Positions 19,170 through 25,418 are shown, counted from the first letter of the stretch. The stretch is 64,000 nt of DNA from Acidimicrobiales bacterium (GCA_965220035.1 CBDCPC010000002.1:1021821-1085820); one strand, 5' to 3'. Notes: generated by a model from the sequence alone, not told the origin. Program-made: numbers and translations.

Positions 19170-19278
19170 GTCGGGAAACTCCGGTCACCATCCGATTCGG
19201 TCGGGACCCCGGAGGTTGCAGGTTCGAACCCAGCCCGCTATGTCGGGAAACTCCGGTCACCATCCGATTCGGTCGGGA
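19170..19278. repeat. Perfect 37-bp direct repeat x2 flanking a 35-bp spacer
   Basis: GTCGGGAAACTCCGGTCACCATCCGATTCGGTCGGGA occurs at 19170-19206 and 19242-19278, 37/37 identical. The spacer CCCCGGAGGTTGCAGGTTCGAACCCAGCCCGCTAT contains a GGTTCGAACC palindrome resembling a tRNA T-arm. The element begins 3 nt after the proA stop. Confidence 0.6.
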
Positions 19279-19717: not shown

Positions 19718-20281
19718 TCAGGAGCGGCGCGACCAGCGTCGGCACGTTCTCGCTCGATCATGGTTTTCGCCCTGCTCGAGCAACACCGGCACCGGACCGG
19801 TGTTGTCGTACAGCCTCCACTCATCGACTCTAGCGGCGTAGTGCTCGCGCAGGTTCCGCAGGCCGGCCACGAAGCGCCTGCGAATCACATCCTCGGACAC
19901 CCGATGCCCGCCTTGCCGAACACGCGCGTCGACCCGGCGGACGGCCTCGTCCGCACCGTCGAGCGACAGGAACACCAGCATCACCCGGTAGCCGTCGAGC
20001 CGCCATCGCTCGATCCGCCTGAGGTAACCACGGCCCGACAACGTGGTCTCGAACGCGAAGCTCCGGCCCGCTGCGGCCAAGCGATCGATCTCGGCGAGCA
20101 TCAGGCGGCCGGCCGCCACCCCGACGCCTGCCCCCCGGTCGAGCGGTGAGAGCCCCCCGGCGATGAGGTCGGCGTTGACGAAGTGCAGACCCGGCGCCTC
20201 GCCGCTCAGATGCCGCATCGCGAACGTGGTCTTGCCGGCGCCGTTGGGCCCCGCGATCACGATGATCTGCTTATCTGCCAT
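19718..20281 (-). CDS. Zeta-toxin/AAA_33-like P-loop kinase family protein
   Basis: 187 aa, MADKQIIVIAGPNGAGKTTFA (Walker A) ... the kinase-like fold family that includes zeta toxins. Confidence 0.6.
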   Translation of the reverse strand: MADKQIIVIAGPNGAGKTTFAMRHLSGEAPGLHFVNADLIAGGLSPLDRGAGVGVAAGRLMLAEIDRLAAAGRSFAFETTLSGRGYLRRIERWRLDGYRVMLVFLSLDGADEAVRRVDARVRQGGHRVSEDVIRRRFVAGLRNLREHYAARVDEWRLYDNTGPVPVLLEQGENHDRARTCRRWSRRS

Positions 20282-20619
20282 GCACTATCCCGGACGGGGC
20301 GACCCGGAGTCGAGAACGGGGCGGTCCGGTTCATGCTACGGGCGCGAGAGCGCCGTGGGCGACCGCTGGGGCAGGACAAGCCGCTGGACGGTGGGATCGG
20401 GATCCTGATCGGGTCAGGGGCAGACTCTCCGCGGGTCGTCCGCTGCGGTGATGGAGTGCGCCGCGACCTGAACGTGGGGGCGCGATGTGCGGGACCACCG
20501 CCCTTTGCGGTGCCCCGGGCGCGCGACAGACCGCGCGCTCGTCGCGGGAGTGCTAACTTGCTGCACCGCTGAACTGTTCGCGCCGGGTCTTGGTCGGATC
20601 CGGACTGGAGGCTCTCACA

Positions 20620-21952
20620 ATGTCCACAAAGACCCCCCCCCGCAGATGCCTTTGAACTGAAACTCACACGGCGCCGCCGCCGGCGGCGGCGCGCCGGTGC
20701 GGCGATCGCGGCCGTCCTGATGGTGACCACCGGCGTCTTCGCGACCACAGCAGCCACCGGTCAGGACACCACGGACAGTTCGGGCGAGGTGCGCATCATC
20801 GCTCGCAAACTCGAGAGCGGGCGCATCGAGTTCGGCCTCCAGCAACGCCAAGCCGACGACACCTGGGGCGCCCGCCAACTCCCCCGCGTCCGCTTCTTCC
20901 CCACCACCGCCCGCACCGGACGCTGGCTCGCCAGCTCCCCCCTCGCATTGACCGCCGGCGAGGTGCGCATCATCGCTCGCAAGCTCGAAAACGGCAAGGT
21001 CGAGTTCGGCCTCCAGCAACGCCAAGCCGATGATTCCTGGAGCGACCGCCAACTGCCCCGGGTCCGCTTCTTCCCCACCACCGCCCGCGTCGGACGCTGG
21101 CTCGCAAGCTCCCCACTCACCCTCACCGCGCCCGGAGCAACCCGCCAATACACCGCCAGCACCGCCGCCGACACCTACACGTGCACACTGAGGGGCGGCG
21201 ACACGCTCACCTGTGTCGGCCAGAGCCTGCTCGCGGACCCCCAAGCGCCCGCCGGTCCGTACACCGCTCTCGCCTCCGGCAACGCCCACGTGTGCGGGCT
21301 ACGCACGGCCGGCACCATCACCTGCTGGGGCGGCAACTGGGAAGGGCAGACCGACGCGCCCGCCGGGCGCTACACCGCCATTAGCGCCGGCAACTACCAC
21401 ACATGCGCGCTGCGCACCGACGGCGCCGTCACCTGCTGGGGCGAGAACAGTGCCGGGCAGACCGAGTCGCCCGCCGGGCAGTACACGGCAATTGCCGCCG
21501 GCGCAGGCCATGCGTGCGGGCTGCGCAACGACGGCGCCGTCACCTGCTGGGGCGATGCGGTCTACGGGGCGACCGACGTGCCCGCCGGGCGCTACACCGC
21601 GATCGCCGGCGGCGTACACGACGTCTGCGGGCTGCGCGCCGATAGCACCATCACCTGCTGGGGCAGCCGCTGGACCGGTAGTGGTGGCATGGACGACATG
21701 GGCGGGCCTCCCGCCGGGCAGTACACCGCCATCAGCACCGGCAACAACCACACGTGCGCGCTGCGCACCGACAGCGGTGTCACGTGTTGGGGCGAAGACT
21801 TCACCGGGGCGACGTGGGTGCCCGCCGGGAGCTACGTTGCAGTCGCCGCCGGCGGCACTCACACGTGCGCACTGCGCACCGACGACACCCTCACGTGCTG
21901 GGGTGACGAGTACGTCGGCGGACCACCACCGGTGGACGCGCCATCCGGGTAG
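20620..21952 (+). CDS. Secreted RCC1-repeat β-propeller protein with two N-terminal ~58-aa repeat domains; apparent frameshift at a C9 tract
   Basis: The body (ORF from ATG 20720) has about 7 RCC1-like blades (..YTAISAGNYHTCALRTDGAVTCWG.. repeated). Upstream ATG 20620 gives MSTKTPP, then a C9 run (20633-41) shifts frame. With one fewer C the reading continues ADAFELKLTRRRRRRRRAGAAIAAVLMVTTGVFATTAATG (a signal-peptide-like N-terminus) in frame with the body. Confidence 0.6.
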
Positions 21953-22123: not shown

Positions 22124-23455
22124 GTGAGGGGTGGCACGGCTCGGCGCCTGCGGACACTTGCAGTGGTCCTGGCCTGCGTGGCCGGTGTCCTCGCCGGGCC
22201 GGCCGCCGTGGCGCAGACCGGCGACGGGTGGCGCATTCTGGCCATGCCTCTCGCGGACGGTCGCGTCGAGGTGGCGTTGCAGCAACGCGACGGCGGCGGC
22301 GAGTGGAGCGAGCGGATCCTGCCCCAGCAGCGGTTCGTGGCCCCGGACACCCCGGTCGGGCGCTGGCAGGCCGGCTTACCGGTCACGATCCGCAGCAGCG
22401 GCGGAGTGCGGGACTTGTGCATCGCGGCGCGCCGCCTCGCCGGCGGGGGCGTGGAGTTGGCATTGCAGCAGCGCCACGGCGGCGGCGAGTGGGGCGAGCG
22501 GATCCTGCCCCAGCAGCGGTTCGTGGCCGCCGACGCCCCGGTTGGGCGCTGGCTGGCGAGTTCTCCGGTCGCCGTCGCGGGACCGGTGACCACCACCGCC
22601 GGCGATCCGCCCGAGGGATCCGCCGGCGGCACTCCCCGCGGCCTGCTCACCCCGACCGGCGTTCCGGTCGCCGTCATCGAGCGGACAGGCTGCGGCTACC
22701 TGGTGCGCGCTCCGTGGGGCGACACCGTCGAGATCGCCACCGGCGAACCCATCGAGGGCGTGCGGGTCGTGATCGACCCGGGTCACGGCGGCCGCTGGGA
22801 GTCCGGCGCGGTCGGCGGCAACGGCCTTGCCGAACGCGACCTGAACCTCACGCTCGGCCGCGCCGTCGTCGCCGAACTCGCCGGTCGCGGCATCGGCGCG
22901 GTGCTGACCCGCACCGGGGACTACGGGACGCCGCTGGCGGTGCGCGCCGCCTTCGCTGACGCGCTGGGAGTCGACGCGCTCATCTCCATCCACCACAACG
23001 CGCCCACGACAACGCTGAGCGACACCCCCGGCACCGAGTTGTACGTCCAATCGACCTCCCCGGGCGCGCCGCGGGCATCCTCGGCGCGCCTCGGAGCCCT
23101 TCTCTACGAGGAGATCACCGCCGCGCTCACCCGCTTCGAAGGCATCCGCTGGTCCCGCCTACCCAACGCCGGCGTCCTGCGAGTGCTGTCCCCCTACGAC
23201 GGCGGCGACGTCTACGGCATGATCCGCCGACCCGCCACCCCCGCCGTCCTCGTCGAGTACGGCTACCTCTCCAACCCCGCCGAGGCCAGGCTGTTCGCCA
23301 CCGACGCATACATCCGCGCAGCCGCCACCGCCACCGCCGACGCCGTCGAGGCCTACCTCCACAGCGACCGCCAAGGCACCGGACACATCCACCGCCCACG
23401 CGTCTTCGACCCGGCCACGCCACCCTTCAGCTACGACGAGTTCCCACTCGAATAG
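22124..23455 (+). CDS. N-acetylmuramoyl-L-alanine amidase (Amidase_3) with signal peptide and two N-terminal ~58-aa repeat domains
   Basis: A GTG start gives RRLRTLAVVLACVAGVLAGPAAVAQT (signal peptide). The amidase_3 core reads ..VVIDPGHGGRWESGAVG..DLNLTLGRAV.. ..DALISIHHNA.. The N-terminal repeats (..GRVEVALQQRDGGGEWSERILPQQRFVAPDTPVGRWQAG..) are homologous to the repeats in the adjacent RCC1 protein. Confidence 0.8.
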   Translation: MRGGTARRLRTLAVVLACVAGVLAGPAAVAQTGDGWRILAMPLADGRVEVALQQRDGGGEWSERILPQQRFVAPDTPVGRWQAGLPVTIRSSGGVRDLCIAARRLAGGGVELALQQRHGGGEWGERILPQQRFVAADAPVGRWLASSPVAVAGPVTTTAGDPPEGSAGGTPRGLLTPTGVPVAVIERTGCGYLVRAPWGDTVEIATGEPIEGVRVVIDPGHGGRWESGAVGGNGLAERDLNLTLGRAVVAELAGRGIGAVLTRTGDYGTPLAVRAAFADALGVDALISIHHNAPTTTLSDTPGTELYVQSTSPGAPRASSARLGALLYEEITAALTRFEGIRWSRLPNAGVLRVLSPYDGGDVYGMIRRPATPAVLVEYGYLSNPAEARLFATDAYIRAAATATADAVEAYLHSDRQGTGHIHRPRVFDPATPPFSYDEFPLE

Positions 23456-23650
23456 CCGCCGCGGCAGTGCATCCTGGTCGCCGGAGCGGGTCCGGGGCCG
23501 TGCCTGATTCCAGCCTCCACCGTCCCGGGCCGTGGGGCCGCGCCTCGGGGTGGGTCATGCGGATCGGACGCAACCTGGTTCCAGTTGCCACCGTCGCGGT
23601 ACGGCCGGCTGGACGGGGCGGCGGAGTTCCGGCGGCAGCGCTCCGAGGCC

Positions 23651-23955
23651 ACTGTCACACCCCCCTCGTAACATCACAAACATGGCAGCGGAAGCACCCC
23701 ACGGGTCCGGATCCCGGCCCGCCTGCCCGGCAATCCCCAACCCCACCGCCGGCACGACCCGCACCCGCCGAACCGCCCCCGGAACACTGTCACACCCCCC
23801 TCGTAACATCACCGTCATGGAGCAGGTAGTGCCCGAAGGACCGGATCAGCGACCGGCGACGCCGACAGCGCCGGAGGGTGTCGCCGCCGGGATGCGCGCC
23901 GGGAGTGACGCTCGGAGAACGCTGTCACACCCCCTTCGTAGCATCACCGTCATGG
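23651..23955 (+). promoter_or_regulatory. Triplicated 34-bp motif CTGTCACACCCCCCTCGTAACATCAC(N3)CATGG at ~135-bp spacing
   Basis: Copies at 23651-85, 23786-820 and 23922-55 are nearly identical; the third has one fewer C. Each contains TAACAT (or TAGCAT) 7 nt before an ATG that is in frame with the DUF222 ORF. This is the geometry of leaderless mycobacterial-type promoters. Confidence 0.5.
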
Positions 23956-25418
23956 AACGCGCGGACATGCACGAAGCGGCACCGGTGTCGACGATCGATG
24001 CGGGTTACTTGGGCTCCGGGCAGGCCTCAGGAGGTGTCATGGCCGAGCGCGGTACTGGCCGCGGCAACGAGGATCGCAGGGGTCCGGACCTCCCACTGGG
24101 AGCGTTGGCGGTCCTGGGGAGCAACGCGGATGCCCTCGATGCGGAGGGCCTGGGCGGGTTCCTGGCGGCAGTGCGAGCGGTGCGGTCGTGGGTGGACGCG
24201 CGGGAGGCCGCGGCGCTGGCGGTGGCAACTCGCCGCGGTGTTGCCGCAGCGGCGGGCGCGGCGGACACGGCGGCCTGGTTGAGCGGGCACACCGGTGTCG
24301 GCCGCCGGGAGGCGCTGGCGCGAACGCGCACCGCGTCAGGTCTGGAGGACCTGCCCGAGGTGGCTGAGGCTCTCGCCGATGGGCGCATCACCCGCGGGCA
24401 CGTGCAGGCGCTGGCGACCTATGCGGCTCCCGATGGCGTGGACCTGAGTGTCGATCCGGACTTGGACTTCCCCGATGCGGCGCGTGAGGCGGCCCGCCGG
24501 GTGGCCCTGGCGGTGCGCGGGCGGCAGGAGAAGTTGATCGCCGCCGCGGAGGCCATGAGCGTCGACGCCTTCCGGCGGTTCCTGCGCCGCTGGGCGGACC
24601 GCGCCGCGGGCGACGATGGCGCCGGGCGGGACGTGGCGCAGCGACGGCGGCGCAGCGTCACCACATTCACCACCGACGACGGCCTGTGCGGCGTGCGCGG
24701 CCTGCTACCACCCGATCAGTTCGCGTTCTTCGAGAACGAACTGCGGCGCCTGGCCGAGGCCCGCTGGCGTGCCGACCACCCCGACGCCGACAACGTGCCC
24801 GCCAAGGAGCTGACCTGCCCCCAGCGCAACGCCGACGCCCTGGTGGACATGGCGCGCCGCAGCCGCCAACTCGGCGACAACGCCGACGAACCGCTCGGCT
24901 CACACGTCGACGTGATGGTCCTCATCGACCACGAGACCCTCACCGGGGGCTTCCACGACGACACTCGTTGCGAACTCGACGACACGACGCCCCTGTCGCC
25001 GGCGGCGGCGCGACGCCTGCTGTGCGACGCCGATGTCCTCACCGCCATCCGTCACCGCAAGCCCTTCAAGCTCGACCTGGGCTACAGCCGGCGGGCCGCC
25101 AACCGCAAGATCCGCAGAGCCCTCATCGCCCGCGACCGCACCTGCACCGCTCCCGGATGTGAGCGGCCCCACTGGATGTGCGAGATCCACCACATCGTGC
25201 CCTGGGTCGAAGGGGGACGCACCGACCTGGACAACCTCACTCTCCTCTGCAGCCGCCATCACCACATCCACCACGCCAACGAGGCACGGAAGATCGAGGG
25301 GGCACGCCGAGCCGACGGCAACCGCACGACAACCGACACAACCGATCCCCCACCCGACCGAAGTCCCGCCCGCGACGGGCCGGACCGCTCGATTGGCATT
25401 GAGCCCTGCGCACACTGA
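23952..25418 (+). CDS. DUF222 domain protein with C-terminal HNH endonuclease (REP13E12-type)
   Basis: The N-terminal DUF222-like region reads (..LGALAVLGSNADALDAEGLGGFLAAVRAVRSWVDAREAAALAV..). The C-terminal HNH motif reads (..RTCTAPGCERPHWMCEIHHIVPWVEGGRTDLDNLTLLCSRHHHIHH). The start was taken at the ATG of the third repeat unit; the maximal ORF begins at 23532. Confidence 0.8.
   Translation: MERADMHEAAPVSTIDAGYLGSGQASGGVMAERGTGRGNEDRRGPDLPLGALAVLGSNADALDAEGLGGFLAAVRAVRSWVDAREAAALAVATRRGVAAAAGAADTAAWLSGHTGVGRREALARTRTASGLEDLPEVAEALADGRITRGHVQALATYAAPDGVDLSVDPDLDFPDAAREAARRVALAVRGRQEKLIAAAEAMSVDAFRRFLRRWADRAAGDDGAGRDVAQRRRRSVTTFTTDDGLCGVRGLLPPDQFAFFENELRRLAEARWRADHPDADNVPAKELTCPQRNADALVDMARRSRQLGDNADEPLGSHVDVMVLIDHETLTGGFHDDTRCELDDTTPLSPAAARRLLCDADVLTAIRHRKPFKLDLGYSRRAANRKIRRALIARDRTCTAPGCERPHWMCEIHHIVPWVEGGRTDLDNLTLLCSRHHHIHHANEARKIEGARRADGNRTTTDTTDPPPDRSPARDGPDRSIGIEPCAH

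What the first reader, a model, noticed from the sequence alone, without database searches (positions are those of the whole stretch)
20620..20725. C9 homopolymer tract separates a signal-peptide-encoding start from the RCC1 protein body (frameshift, slippage or sequencing error)
ATG 20620 gives MSTKTPP, then nine consecutive C's (20633-20641). In the observed sequence the frame terminates after 11 codons. With 8 (or 11) C's the frame continues as ..ADAFELKLTRRRRRRRRAGAAIAAVLMVTTGVFATTAATG.. straight into the RCC1 ORF, a textbook secretion signal with an 8-Arg n-region. The upstream frame therefore encodes exactly the signal peptide the mature protein needs. So the gene is either frameshifted at a slippage-prone tract (phase-variable ON/OFF switching of a secreted protein), or uses programmed +1/-1 slippage, or the assembly has a homopolymer error.
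Basis: seen in the sequence. Interest (0 to 1): 0.6.

Follow-up and report, generated by a model that had tools for sequence, protein, structure and literature searches.

The report
Poly-C frameshift gate in secreted-protein gene
A run of nine C's just after the start codon puts the start of a secreted RCC1-repeat protein out of frame with its own signal peptide; the break is real and shared with sponge-associated relatives, and is most likely a slippage-prone on/off switch currently read as off.

Summary
ATG 20620 has a GGAGG ribosome-binding site 8 nt upstream. It is followed by a C9 tract (20633-20641), and frame 0 stops at TGA 20653. The +1 frame encodes a complete signal peptide running into the RCC1 ORF, but it has no ATG/GTG/TTG before ATG 20720.

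Assembly error is unlikely. Other homopolymers in the window lie in frame. Orthologous loci in independent assemblies, one documented as Illumina-only from the sponge Aplysina aerophoba, carry a poly-C tract at the same place: C9 in five and C12 in two. Every clean length is a multiple of three and needs the same +1 correction. Tract-less orthologues read in frame from ATG through a homologous signal peptide.

The mature protein is under purifying selection between tract-bearing lineages (dN/dS 0.33-0.36 in the N-terminal repeats, p about 0.001), so it is not a decaying pseudogene.

No in-frame (C8/C11) allele was found, nor any stimulatory RNA structure or conserved rare codon.

Best reading: a homopolymer contingency locus, switched by slipped-strand phase variation, seen in the OFF state (about 0.45). 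The main rival is rescue by ribosomal +1 slippage on CCC-C or by transcriptional slippage (about 0.25). This is a new member of a known kind.

The parts
20607..20611 (+). Shine-Dalgarno sequence GGAGG, 8 nt upstream of ATG 20620
   Evidence: Read directly. Identical in all tract-bearing relatives, and the context CCGGACTGGAGGCTC is conserved.
20620..20655 (+). Frame-0 mini-ORF MSTKTPPRRCL plus TGA. It holds the ancestral start codon of the gene, now out of frame with the body.
   Evidence: The ATG and the first codons are conserved in L002/L003. Orthologues without a tract start at the equivalent ATG.
20633..20641 (+). C9 homopolymer tract, the frameshift gate. C8 or C11 would be in frame.
   Evidence: The orthologous tracts are C9 in five assemblies and C12 in two. 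The count is >=13 or garbled in two more, and C10 in an error-prone 4x contig of the same strain.
20642..20761 (+). +1-frame coding for the rest of the signal peptide: ADAFELKLT, an eight-Arg n-region (20669-20692), the h-region AGAAIAAVLMVTTGVFATTAATG, and a predicted cleavage site before Q (20762).
   Evidence: Translation. Homology to the signal peptides of intact orthologues. Indels relative to L002 are multiples of 3. The cleavage site is inferred from the A-x-A/G pattern.
20653..20660 (+). TGAACTGA. It places TGA stops in both off-frames (20653-55 and 20658-60) and a main-frame CTG (20657-59), the only near-cognate start upstream of the Arg run.
   Evidence: Read directly. The CTG occurs only in tract-bearing leaders; the others have CGA, CCA or ATA.
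20720..21952 (+). RCC1-repeat ORF as callable from the first in-frame ATG (410 aa). From this start it lacks an n-region and half the h-region.
   Evidence: Pfam RCC1_2 matched in 5 stretches, E=9.8e-39. Gene callers in public assemblies also start here.
20783..21129 (+). Two copies of an unannotated beta module of about 58 aa (EVRIIARKL..GRIEFGLQQRQ..RFFPTTA..RWLASSPL).
21137..21906 (+). RCC1-like blade repeats with a 111-nt period
   Evidence: Repeat family D1; Pfam RCC1_2.
22163..23455 (+). Downstream N-acetylmuramoyl-L-alanine amidase gene. It carries the same N-terminal module twice and has an intact signal peptide. The pairing with the RCC1 gene is syntenic in relatives.
   Evidence: Pfam Amidase_3 E=1.5e-32. 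Synteny in L001-L015. Repeat D2.
19718..20281 (-). Divergent zeta-toxin/AAA_33-like gene. Its C6 run (20153-20158) is in frame here but reads C7 in contig L001.
   Evidence: This gene serves as an internal control for homopolymer accuracy.

Best explanation
The C9 tract is a real, inherited feature of this Acidimicrobiales genome and not an assembly error. It sits between the gene's true translation start (SD GGAGG plus ATG 20620) and the rest of the signal peptide, and it puts them one nucleotide out of register. In the sequenced state, ribosomes starting at ATG 20620 make an 11-residue peptide and stop. The secreted RCC1-repeat protein is made only when the register is restored. The most likely means of restoration is slipped-strand mispairing of the tract during replication (C9 to C8, or C12 to C11). 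That would make this a phase-variable contingency locus for a secreted or envelope-associated protein, captured OFF in every assembly available. Shown here: the tract, the frame break, the conserved start, the conserved signal peptide, inheritance across lineages, and purifying selection on the body. Inferred: that switching happens at the DNA level, and that the protein is surface-exposed.
For: 1) The tract and frame break are in the window.
2) The break is not an artefact. C8 at 50111, C7 at 10595 and two G7 runs in the window all lie in frame within open reading frames; the first two translate to recognisable lgt-like and polA-like sequence. Contig L001 is the same strain: 0 mismatches over 7.2 kb and only two differences, both +1 C in C runs. 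One of them breaks the P-loop gene that is intact in the window.
3) Relatives carry poly-C at the same site and in the same out-of-frame register. It is C9 in L002/L007, L004, L010, L011 and L012, and C12 in L003 and L008. MKWU, the record holding L002/L007, is an Illumina-only assembly of the sponge Aplysina aerophoba.
4) Tract length differs between the two paralogous copies (9 versus 12). The long copy ends the stored L006 sequence within the tract (>=13 C) and is garbled in L009. This is as expected for an unstable or heterogeneous tract.
5) More distant orthologues have no tract and read in frame from SD-ATG through a homologous signal peptide.
6) Downstream of the tract the +1 frame behaves as coding. 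It has no stops, and its only indels against L002 are 3-nt indels.
7) The mature protein is under purifying selection between tract-bearing lineages. dN/dS is 0.33-0.36 at dS about 0.28 in the N-terminal repeats (Fisher p=0.0011 and 0.0004), and p=0.0015 and 3.8e-5 for the whole mature part. These values match those between intact orthologues.
8) There is precedent in Actinobacteria. [quoted passage not shown] The 7C tract of M. tuberculosis glpK undergoes reversible frameshifts, includes an in-frame +3C variant, and sits in a species lacking a recognisable mismatch-repair system (bioRxiv 10.1101/717272).
Against: No ON allele (C8, C11 or C14) was seen in any assembly or protein cluster. All cluster members are called from the internal start. 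Exact look-ups of nine hypothetical ON proteins (one mistyped) and a search with a leader-only profile found nothing. These negatives are weak, because the window's own 410-aa protein is also absent from that collection. All three independent loci sit in the same OFF register (9, 9 and 12, all 0 mod 3), whereas unconstrained phase variation would also populate the other OFF register. The C9 copy reads C9 in all five assemblies, although several of these may derive from the same sponge material. Heterogeneity within a population could not be examined, because reads were not available.
Confidence: 0.45

Rival explanations
1. Rescue during gene expression, without any DNA change. The out-of-frame register (tract length 0 mod 3) is the fixed, functional genotype. 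A minority of ribosomes slip +1 on CCC_CCC_C, with P-site tRNA-Pro re-pairing on CCC. Alternatively, RNA polymerase slips on the C9-C12 template and makes some transcripts with one C fewer or two more. Either route gives constitutive low-level synthesis of the full pre-protein.
For: All three independent loci keep the same +1 register, and the only length difference is exactly +3, from 9 to 12. The gene body stays under purifying selection over dS of about 0.3 even though every observed allele is 'broken'. CCC-C allows re-pairing without penalty, and when it lies next to the start codon it gives about 1% +1 frameshifting in E. coli (PMC4519876). Here two tandem CCC-C sites sit at codons 6-7. 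From my own knowledge, not checked here: poly(A)-tract frameshifts in insect endosymbionts persist and are rescued by transcriptional slippage (Tamas et al. 2008).
Against: No stimulator was found. The next frame-0 codon is the common CGC in the window, at 42.8 per 1000. There is no SD-like element just upstream. The leader does not fold better than shuffled sequence (z=0.58), and there is no Rfam match at threshold. The Arg-run palindrome and the prfB-like CTT_TGA are not conserved in L002/L003. Documented transcriptional slippage concerns A/T runs (PMC3711429). With only three loci, two of them recent paralogues, the mod-3 pattern has roughly a 1 in 4 chance of arising among OFF states.
Confidence: 0.25
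2. Inactivated gene. A frameshift at a mutable tract has silenced the gene, and it is a young pseudogene, or one kept looking intact by concerted evolution of its repeats.
For: Every sequenced allele is out of frame, and no ON allele is known. The RCC1 part evolves fast, with dN/dS 0.6-0.7. The two N-terminal repeats within each gene homogenise; they are identical in P0003. That reduces the number of independent sites in the selection test.
Against: The break is shared by lineages separated by dS of about 0.3-0.4, yet 1.3 kb of ORF has no stop or further frameshift in any of them. dN/dS in the N-terminal repeats is 0.33-0.36, significantly below 1 and the same as between intact orthologues. 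The SD, the ATG and the +1-frame signal peptide are all retained, with only 3-nt indels.
Confidence: 0.12
3. Alternative initiation. The ATG mini-ORF acts as an upstream ORF, and the pre-protein starts at the main-frame CTG 20657. This would happen by re-initiation of ribosomes that terminate at TGA 20653, one nucleotide upstream, or at the overlapping C-TGA in the other register. The product, MKLTRRRRRRRR..., would still be a complete signal peptide.
For: CTG 20657 is the only near-cognate start upstream of the Arg run. It is present in all tract-bearing leaders and absent from the intact orthologues, which have CGA, CCA or ATA. Both off-frame stops abut it.
Against: There is no SD in front of the CTG. 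CTG initiates poorly in bacteria (my own knowledge). The pattern rests on a single codon in three related sequences. The TGA at 20653 is also present where the gene is in frame.
Confidence: 0.08
4. Homopolymer miscall in the window's assembly. The true tract is C8 and the gene is simply intact.
For: Long-read assemblies miscount homopolymers. The 4x contig L001 of the same strain reads C10 here and C7 instead of C6 at 20153. C9 is the longest run in the window, so no equally long run is available as a control.
Against: Runs of 6 to 8 bases in the window are all in frame. Independent assemblies of related genomes have the same out-of-frame register at the same site. At least three public contigs, two of them longer than 1 Mb, carry a gene called with exactly the truncated 410-aa product.
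Confidence: 0.04

Closest known systems
Homopolymer-tract contingency loci: slipped-strand phase variation of surface-protein genes, e.g. poly-G/C tracts in Neisseria, Bordetella, Campylobacter and Helicobacter
   Same: A long G/C homopolymer lies inside the 5' coding region of a gene for an exported protein. Tract length sets the reading frame. Length differs between copies and lineages. Off-frame reading terminates within a few codons.
   Different: The host is an uncultured, sponge-associated, 70% GC Acidimicrobiales bacterium and not a pathogen. No ON allele has been seen. All observed lengths share one OFF register. Only this one gene lineage in the large family carries the tract.
G/C homopolymeric tracts in Cutibacterium (Propionibacterium) acnes (PMC4746626)
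   Same: The organism is an actinobacterium. The tracts are almost exclusively G/C. [quoted passage not shown] Length variation follows clades, which suggests slow change and not rapid switching. That resembles the stable C9 seen here.
   Different: The genes are unrelated. In C. acnes both in-frame and out-of-frame variants are documented across 90 genomes, whereas here only out-of-frame variants are known.
Mycobacterium tuberculosis glpK 7C tract (bioRxiv 10.1101/717272)
   Same: It is a poly-C tract inside an actinobacterial coding sequence. Frameshifts at the tract are reversible. An in-frame +3C variant exists, parallel to the 9 versus 12 difference here. M. tuberculosis lacks a recognisable mismatch-repair system.
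   Different: glpK encodes a cytoplasmic enzyme, its tract is mid-gene, and its wild type is in frame. Here the tract is at codons 5-8 and the consensus is out of frame.
Spontaneous or programmed +1 ribosomal frameshifting by tRNA-Pro on CCC-C (E. coli reporters, PMC4519876); phage PSA CCC_UGA from my own knowledge
   Same: The same slippery motif is present, lies close to the start codon, and needs a +1 shift.
   Different: No stimulatory stop or rare codon, SD-like element or structure is conserved here. The efficiency expected without such elements is about 1%. No product evidence exists.
Frameshifted genes rescued by transcriptional slippage at long homopolymers (poly(A) in insect endosymbionts; Thermus dnaX A9; PMC3711429, PMC1088944)
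   Same: A long homopolymer maintains a 'broken' but still selected gene in a host-associated bacterium.
   Different: The known cases involve A/T runs. Slippage on C/G runs is not established.

Membership tests
Phase-variable contingency locus (slipped-strand mispairing at a homopolymer) | A hypermutable simple repeat (homopolymer of about 7 or more) within the ORF or promoter, placed so that a length change switches expression | tested here: met
   C9 lies at codons 5-8 between the start codon and the signal peptide. C8 or C11 restores the frame.
Phase-variable contingency locus (slipped-strand mispairing at a homopolymer) | Tract length is polymorphic between strains or copies | tested here: met
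   The tract is C9 in the window and in the zeta-adjacent copy, and C12 in the HNH-adjacent copy. It reads >=13 or is garbled in two assemblies. Some of these assemblies may be replicates of one sponge sample.
Phase-variable contingency locus (slipped-strand mispairing at a homopolymer) | Both ON and OFF alleles exist in nature, i.e. the switch is reversible | tested here: not met
   Only OFF lengths were seen. Cluster members are all truncated calls. Exact look-ups and a leader profile search found no ON protein. The sample is small and the negatives are weak.
Phase-variable contingency locus (slipped-strand mispairing at a homopolymer) | Length heterogeneity within a population, at a rate far above the base-substitution rate | not testable with these tools
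   This needs read pile-ups. The only hints are that the stored L006 sequence stops inside the long tract and that L009 is garbled there.
Phase-variable contingency locus (slipped-strand mispairing at a homopolymer) | The product is exposed or secreted | tested here: met
   A signal peptide is reconstructed in the +1 frame and is homologous to those of intact orthologues. The N-terminal module is shared with a cell-wall amidase. Export itself is inferred.
Programmed +1 ribosomal frameshifting | A slippery site that allows P-site tRNA to re-pair in the +1 frame | tested here: met
   CCC_CCC_C is present. CCC-C behaviour is described in PMC4519876.
Programmed +1 ribosomal frameshifting | The frame offset is conserved among orthologues | tested here: met
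   Lengths of 9, 9 and 12 all need +1. Only three loci are available, two of them recent paralogues.
Programmed +1 ribosomal frameshifting | A stimulator is present: a slow or stop codon in the A site, an upstream SD-like sequence, or a downstream structure | tested here: not met
   The next codon is CGC, which is common. No SD-like element was seen on reading the 12 nt before the tract. Fold z=0.58. The hairpin and the CTT_TGA motif are not conserved.
Programmed +1 ribosomal frameshifting | A trans-frame protein product is demonstrated | not testable with these tools
   This needs a reporter assay or mass spectrometry of the unprocessed precursor.
Programmed transcriptional realignment (slippage) | A long homopolymer, classically A or T of 9 or more, with cDNA length heterogeneity | tested here: inconclusive
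   The length criterion is met (9-12), but the base is C, for which slippage is not established. No cDNA data are available.
Sequencing or assembly homopolymer artefact | The frame break is confined to one assembly and accompanied by other homopolymer-linked breaks | tested here: not met
   Other runs in the window are in frame. The same register appears in independent assemblies of relatives, one documented as Illumina-only. The artefact pattern is seen instead in the 4x contig L001.
RCC1-like beta-propeller repeat protein | Multiple RCC1 blades recognised by the family profile | tested here: met
   Pfam RCC1_2, 130.6 bits against a cut-off of 22, 5 stretches.

The most novel reading that the evidence does not exclude
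The out-of-frame register may be the fixed, selected genotype. Expression of this secreted protein would then depend on +1 decoding of a poly-C tract, by tRNA-Pro slipping on CCC-C or by RNA-polymerase slippage on a C run. The arrangement would have been maintained across lineages through in-frame tract expansion from 9 to 12. That would be a recoding or 'impaired-and-rescued' gene based on a C homopolymer in a host-associated actinobacterium, for which there is no established precedent.
Probability: 0.22. Interest if true: 0.7.

Novelty: new member of a known kind. Interest (0 to 1): 0.45.

Why it matters
If the tract is a phase switch, it would be, to my knowledge, the first candidate contingency locus described in a sponge-associated Acidimicrobiales lineage. 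It controls a secreted protein built of eukaryote-like RCC1 repeats, and eukaryote-like repeat proteins in general are suspected of mediating symbiont-host or symbiont-phage interactions. Stochastic on/off expression of such a protein would bear on how symbionts persist in a phagocytic host. If expression instead relies on slippage at the RNA or ribosome level, it would extend recoding, or 'rescue by infidelity', from poly(A) to poly(C) tracts. For annotation, the finding shows that the 410-417-423-aa gene calls in public databases are N-terminally truncated and hide a signal peptide.

Tried and rejected
- **prfB-like site.** CTT_TGA at 20650-20655 looks like the prfB +1 site, but L002/L003 have CTG_TGA, so it is not conserved.
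- **Arg-run palindrome.** The perfect palindrome GCGCCGCCGCCGGCGGCGGCGC (20671-20692) could have been a stimulatory hairpin. It is specific to the window's eight-Arg run and is not conserved.
- **Leader RNA.** Folding gives z=0.58, no better than shuffles. Rfam gives only a sub-threshold ROSE_3 match at 19.6 bits against 43.
- **Promoter and terminator scan.** The sigma-70 and terminator consensus scan found nothing.
- **Family-wide tracts.** The other N-terminally short calls are not homopolymer frameshifts. P0009 is an in-frame gene called from a late start. P0028 has no homopolymer. P0023 is not on record. Neighbouring paralogues and the amidase have normal signal peptides.
- **Search for ON alleles.** Cluster member lists, exact look-ups of nine hypothetical ON proteins (one of which I mistyped) and a leader-only profile search found none. 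The control, the window's own 410-aa protein, is also absent from that collection.
- **Genome-collection scans.** A DNA pattern scan of the genome collection found nothing. A protein scan found only the tract-less Acidimicrobiales orthologue L016.
- **Upstream GTG ORF.** The ORF from GTG 20487 fuses with the RCC1 frame when the tract is C10. I judged this a chance open frame in 70% GC DNA, because it would place about 50 residues ahead of the signal peptide.
- **Hungry codon.** The window has the common CGC after the tract, so this is not supported.

Full report
**Observation**

- ATG 20620 is preceded by GGAGG (20607-20611) at a spacing of 8 nt.
- The codons ATG TCC ACA AAG ACC CCC CCC CGC AGA TGC CTT TGA give MSTKTPPRRCL and then a stop at 20653-20655.
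- The nine C's occupy 20633-20641 and are the longest homopolymer in the window. Only one C8, one C7 and two G7 runs come close.
- The +1 frame is open from 20573. After the tract it reads ADAFELKLTRRRRRRRRAGAAIAAVLMVTTGVFATTAATGQD... into the 410-aa ORF 20720-21952.
- That frame has no ATG, GTG or TTG before ATG 20720.
- A start at 20720 would leave only MVTTGVFATTAATG ahead of the likely cleavage site. That has no charged n-region and half an h-region, so it is not a plausible signal peptide (inference).
- A C/G 9-mer is not unlikely by composition alone: dinucleotide shuffles give 2.9 per window. The signal lies in where the tract sits and in its conservation.

**Is it an assembly error?**

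Three lines of evidence say probably not.

First, the other long runs in the window (C8 at 50111, C7 at 10595, and two G7 runs) all lie in frame within open reading frames. The first two translate to recognisable lgt-like and polA-like sequence.

Second, a public 13.9-kb contig of the same strain (L001, labelled 4x) is identical to the window over 7,233 bases except for two extra C's. Both lie in C runs: C7 for C6 at 20153, and C10 for C9 at the tract. The first extra C separates the P-loop from the rest of the zeta-toxin/AAA_33-like gene, which is intact in the window. The low-coverage contig therefore carries the homopolymer errors, not the window. Its C10 is not evidence of real heterogeneity.

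Third, and most important, related genomes have a poly-C tract at the orthologous position in the same out-of-frame register.
- The tract is C9 in L002/L007 (GenBank MKWU01004474), L004, L010, L011 and L012.
- It is C12 in L003 and L008.
- MKWU is the Illumina-only assembly of the Aplysina aerophoba sponge metagenome (PMC5649159).
- In two further assemblies the long tract either ends the stored sequence (L006, at least 13 C) or is garbled into two runs (L009).
- On the MKWU contig the two tracts belong to two paralogous RCC1 genes, one next to an HNH/DUF222 gene and one next to the zeta-like gene.
- The JGI samples may be replicate extractions of one sponge. I therefore count three independent loci, not nine.

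**What the frames encode**

The nearest tract-less orthologues start at an SD-ATG and run in frame through a homologous signal peptide.

| Locus | N-terminal sequence |
|---|---|
| L013 / P0003 | MTPRSNEPNLTPRRWRPTRRACAAIAVVLVAATSVFATTAVAGQD |
| L014 / P0006 | MAPRSGTCERNLTPRRCSPTRRVGAAIAVVLVAATSVFVTTAVAGQD |
| L005 / P0005 | MTSPQSNACAIDLTPRRRRSTRSAVAVLAVLVVAASVFATTAVAGQD |

The window's +1 frame (..ADAFELKLTRRRRRRRRAGAAIAAVLMVTTGVFATTAATGQD) aligns with these residue for residue. So do the +1 frames of L002 and L003 (DACELRLTRRRRRPARRAGAAIAAVLVVATGVFAATSAAAQD).

At the DNA level the tract-bearing clade has 7 or 10 extra nucleotides between the ATG and the conserved TGAAC. Both numbers are 3n+1. 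Downstream of the tract the only indels between the window and L002 are two 3-nt indels, as expected for coding sequence.

The ancestral gene was therefore in frame. The clade containing the window acquired the tract together with a one-nucleotide offset.

**Is the gene still alive?**

Between the window and the two tract-bearing relatives, the N-terminal repeat region has dN/dS of 0.33-0.36 at dS of about 0.28. Fisher tests of non-synonymous against synonymous change give p = 0.0011 and 0.0004.

For the whole mature protein, p = 0.0015 and 3.8e-5.

These ratios match those between intact orthologues (0.19-0.34). The RCC1 part evolves fast in all comparisons (0.5-0.7).

No further stop or frameshift occurs in about 1.3 kb in any lineage.

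One caveat applies: the two repeats within each gene homogenise, which reduces the number of independent sites.

On balance the gene is maintained by selection, so the protein must be made in some way.

**How is the frame restored?**

Nothing other than the tract itself looks like a recoding signal.
- The leader folds no better than shuffled sequence (z = 0.58).
- Rfam gives nothing at threshold.
- The eight-Arg palindrome and the prfB-like CTT_TGA are peculiar to the window.
- The frame-0 codon after the tract is CGC, which is common.
- The 12 nt just upstream of the tract show no SD-like sequence (read directly).

CCC-C is nonetheless an intrinsically +1-prone motif. It gives about 1% frameshifting near a start codon in E. 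coli (PMC4519876), and two such motifs stand here at codons 6 and 7. A low leak is therefore expected (inference).

Two points favour DNA-level switching:
- the classical architecture of a long G/C run at the 5' end of an exported-protein gene;
- different lengths in different copies, with instability of the longer tract in assemblies.

Actinobacterial precedents exist. [quoted passage not shown] The 7C tract of M. tuberculosis glpK has reversible frameshifts and an in-frame +3C variant, in a species that lacks a recognisable mismatch-repair system.

Two points count against it:
- no ON allele was found;
- all three loci are in the same OFF register (9, 9, 12).

The second point is what a fixed recoding genotype would predict. 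With three loci, two of them recent paralogues, it would arise by chance about one time in four among OFF states.

A further possibility is re-initiation at the main-frame CTG 20657. Both off-frame TGA stops abut it, and it is found only in tract-bearing leaders. It has no SD of its own.

I rank the explanations as follows.

| Explanation | Weight |
|---|---|
| Phase variation, seen OFF | 0.45 |
| Slippage during expression | 0.25 |
| Inactivated gene | 0.12 |
| CTG initiation | 0.08 |
| Assembly error | 0.04 |

**Context**

The protein has five RCC1_2 matches.

It also has two copies of an unannotated module of about 58 aa. The adjacent Amidase_3 gene carries the same module twice. Relatives fuse it to ankyrin, SLH and other domains.

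Relatives are named Acidimicrobiales, Acidimicrobiia or Candidatus Poriferisocius, and many come from sponge metagenomes.

The tract is confined to this one gene lineage. Other family members that look N-terminally short are late-start calls or otherwise damaged, not homopolymer frameshifts.

**Verdict**

The feature is a genuine, inherited poly-C frameshift gate at the start of a secreted RCC1-repeat protein gene. I file it as a new member of the known class of homopolymer contingency loci. There remains an appreciable chance, about one in five, that it is instead a poly-C-dependent recoding or rescue case, which would be new. Read-level and cDNA-level tract-length distributions, together with a simple reporter series, would settle the question.

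Noticed in passing
window 23612-23956: Three copies, 135 nt apart, of a repeat with the core CTGTCACACCCCC(C/T)TCGTA(A/G)CATCAC...CATGG. They lie upstream of, or in the 5' part of, the DUF222+HNH ORF (23532-25418). Each copy contains a C5-C6 run. Their function is unknown (family D4).
   Followed up: no
window 19170-19206 and 19242-19278: A perfect 37-nt direct repeat (GTCGGGAAACTCCGGTCACCATCCGATTCGGTCGGGA), with copies 72 nt apart, just downstream of the proA-like gene. ARAGORN finds no tRNA there.
   Followed up: partly
[not shown]
   Followed up: partly
L001 2432 (= window 20153) and L001 2913 (= window 20633): The public 4x contig of the same strain differs from the window only by one extra C in each of two C runs. 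One of them splits the zeta-toxin/AAA_33-like gene. This is a clean example of homopolymer over-calling in low-coverage long-read metagenome contigs. Several ENA family members also have frameshifted C-terminal tails, e.g. P0021, P0047 and P0053.
   Followed up: yes
L007 5032-5130 / L009 1331-1430 (MKWU01004474.1): In the Illumina-only A. aerophoba assembly, the long-tract copy reads C13, then about 40 nt of scrambled sequence, then C14. This is probably a mis-assembly caused by the tract. In another sample (L006) the stored sequence stops inside the tract.
   Followed up: partly
L003, L004, L008, L010 versus L002: Leaders and gene bodies of the two paralogous RCC1 genes occur in different combinations in different assemblies. 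For example, the C9 leader appears with the P0002-type body in L004 and L010. This indicates either recombination between the copies or chimeric assembly.
   Followed up: no
window 20440-20619: The 5' untranslated and promoter region upstream of ATG 20620 is 90% identical to that of L002 (161 of 179 positions). That is more conserved than synonymous sites in the gene (pS about 0.23-0.32). No known RNA family or sigma-70 consensus was found there.
   Followed up: partly
window 20487-20660: An upstream GTG ORF in the third frame would fuse to the RCC1 frame if the tract were C10, as in L001. I judged it a chance open frame in 70% GC DNA.
   Followed up: partly
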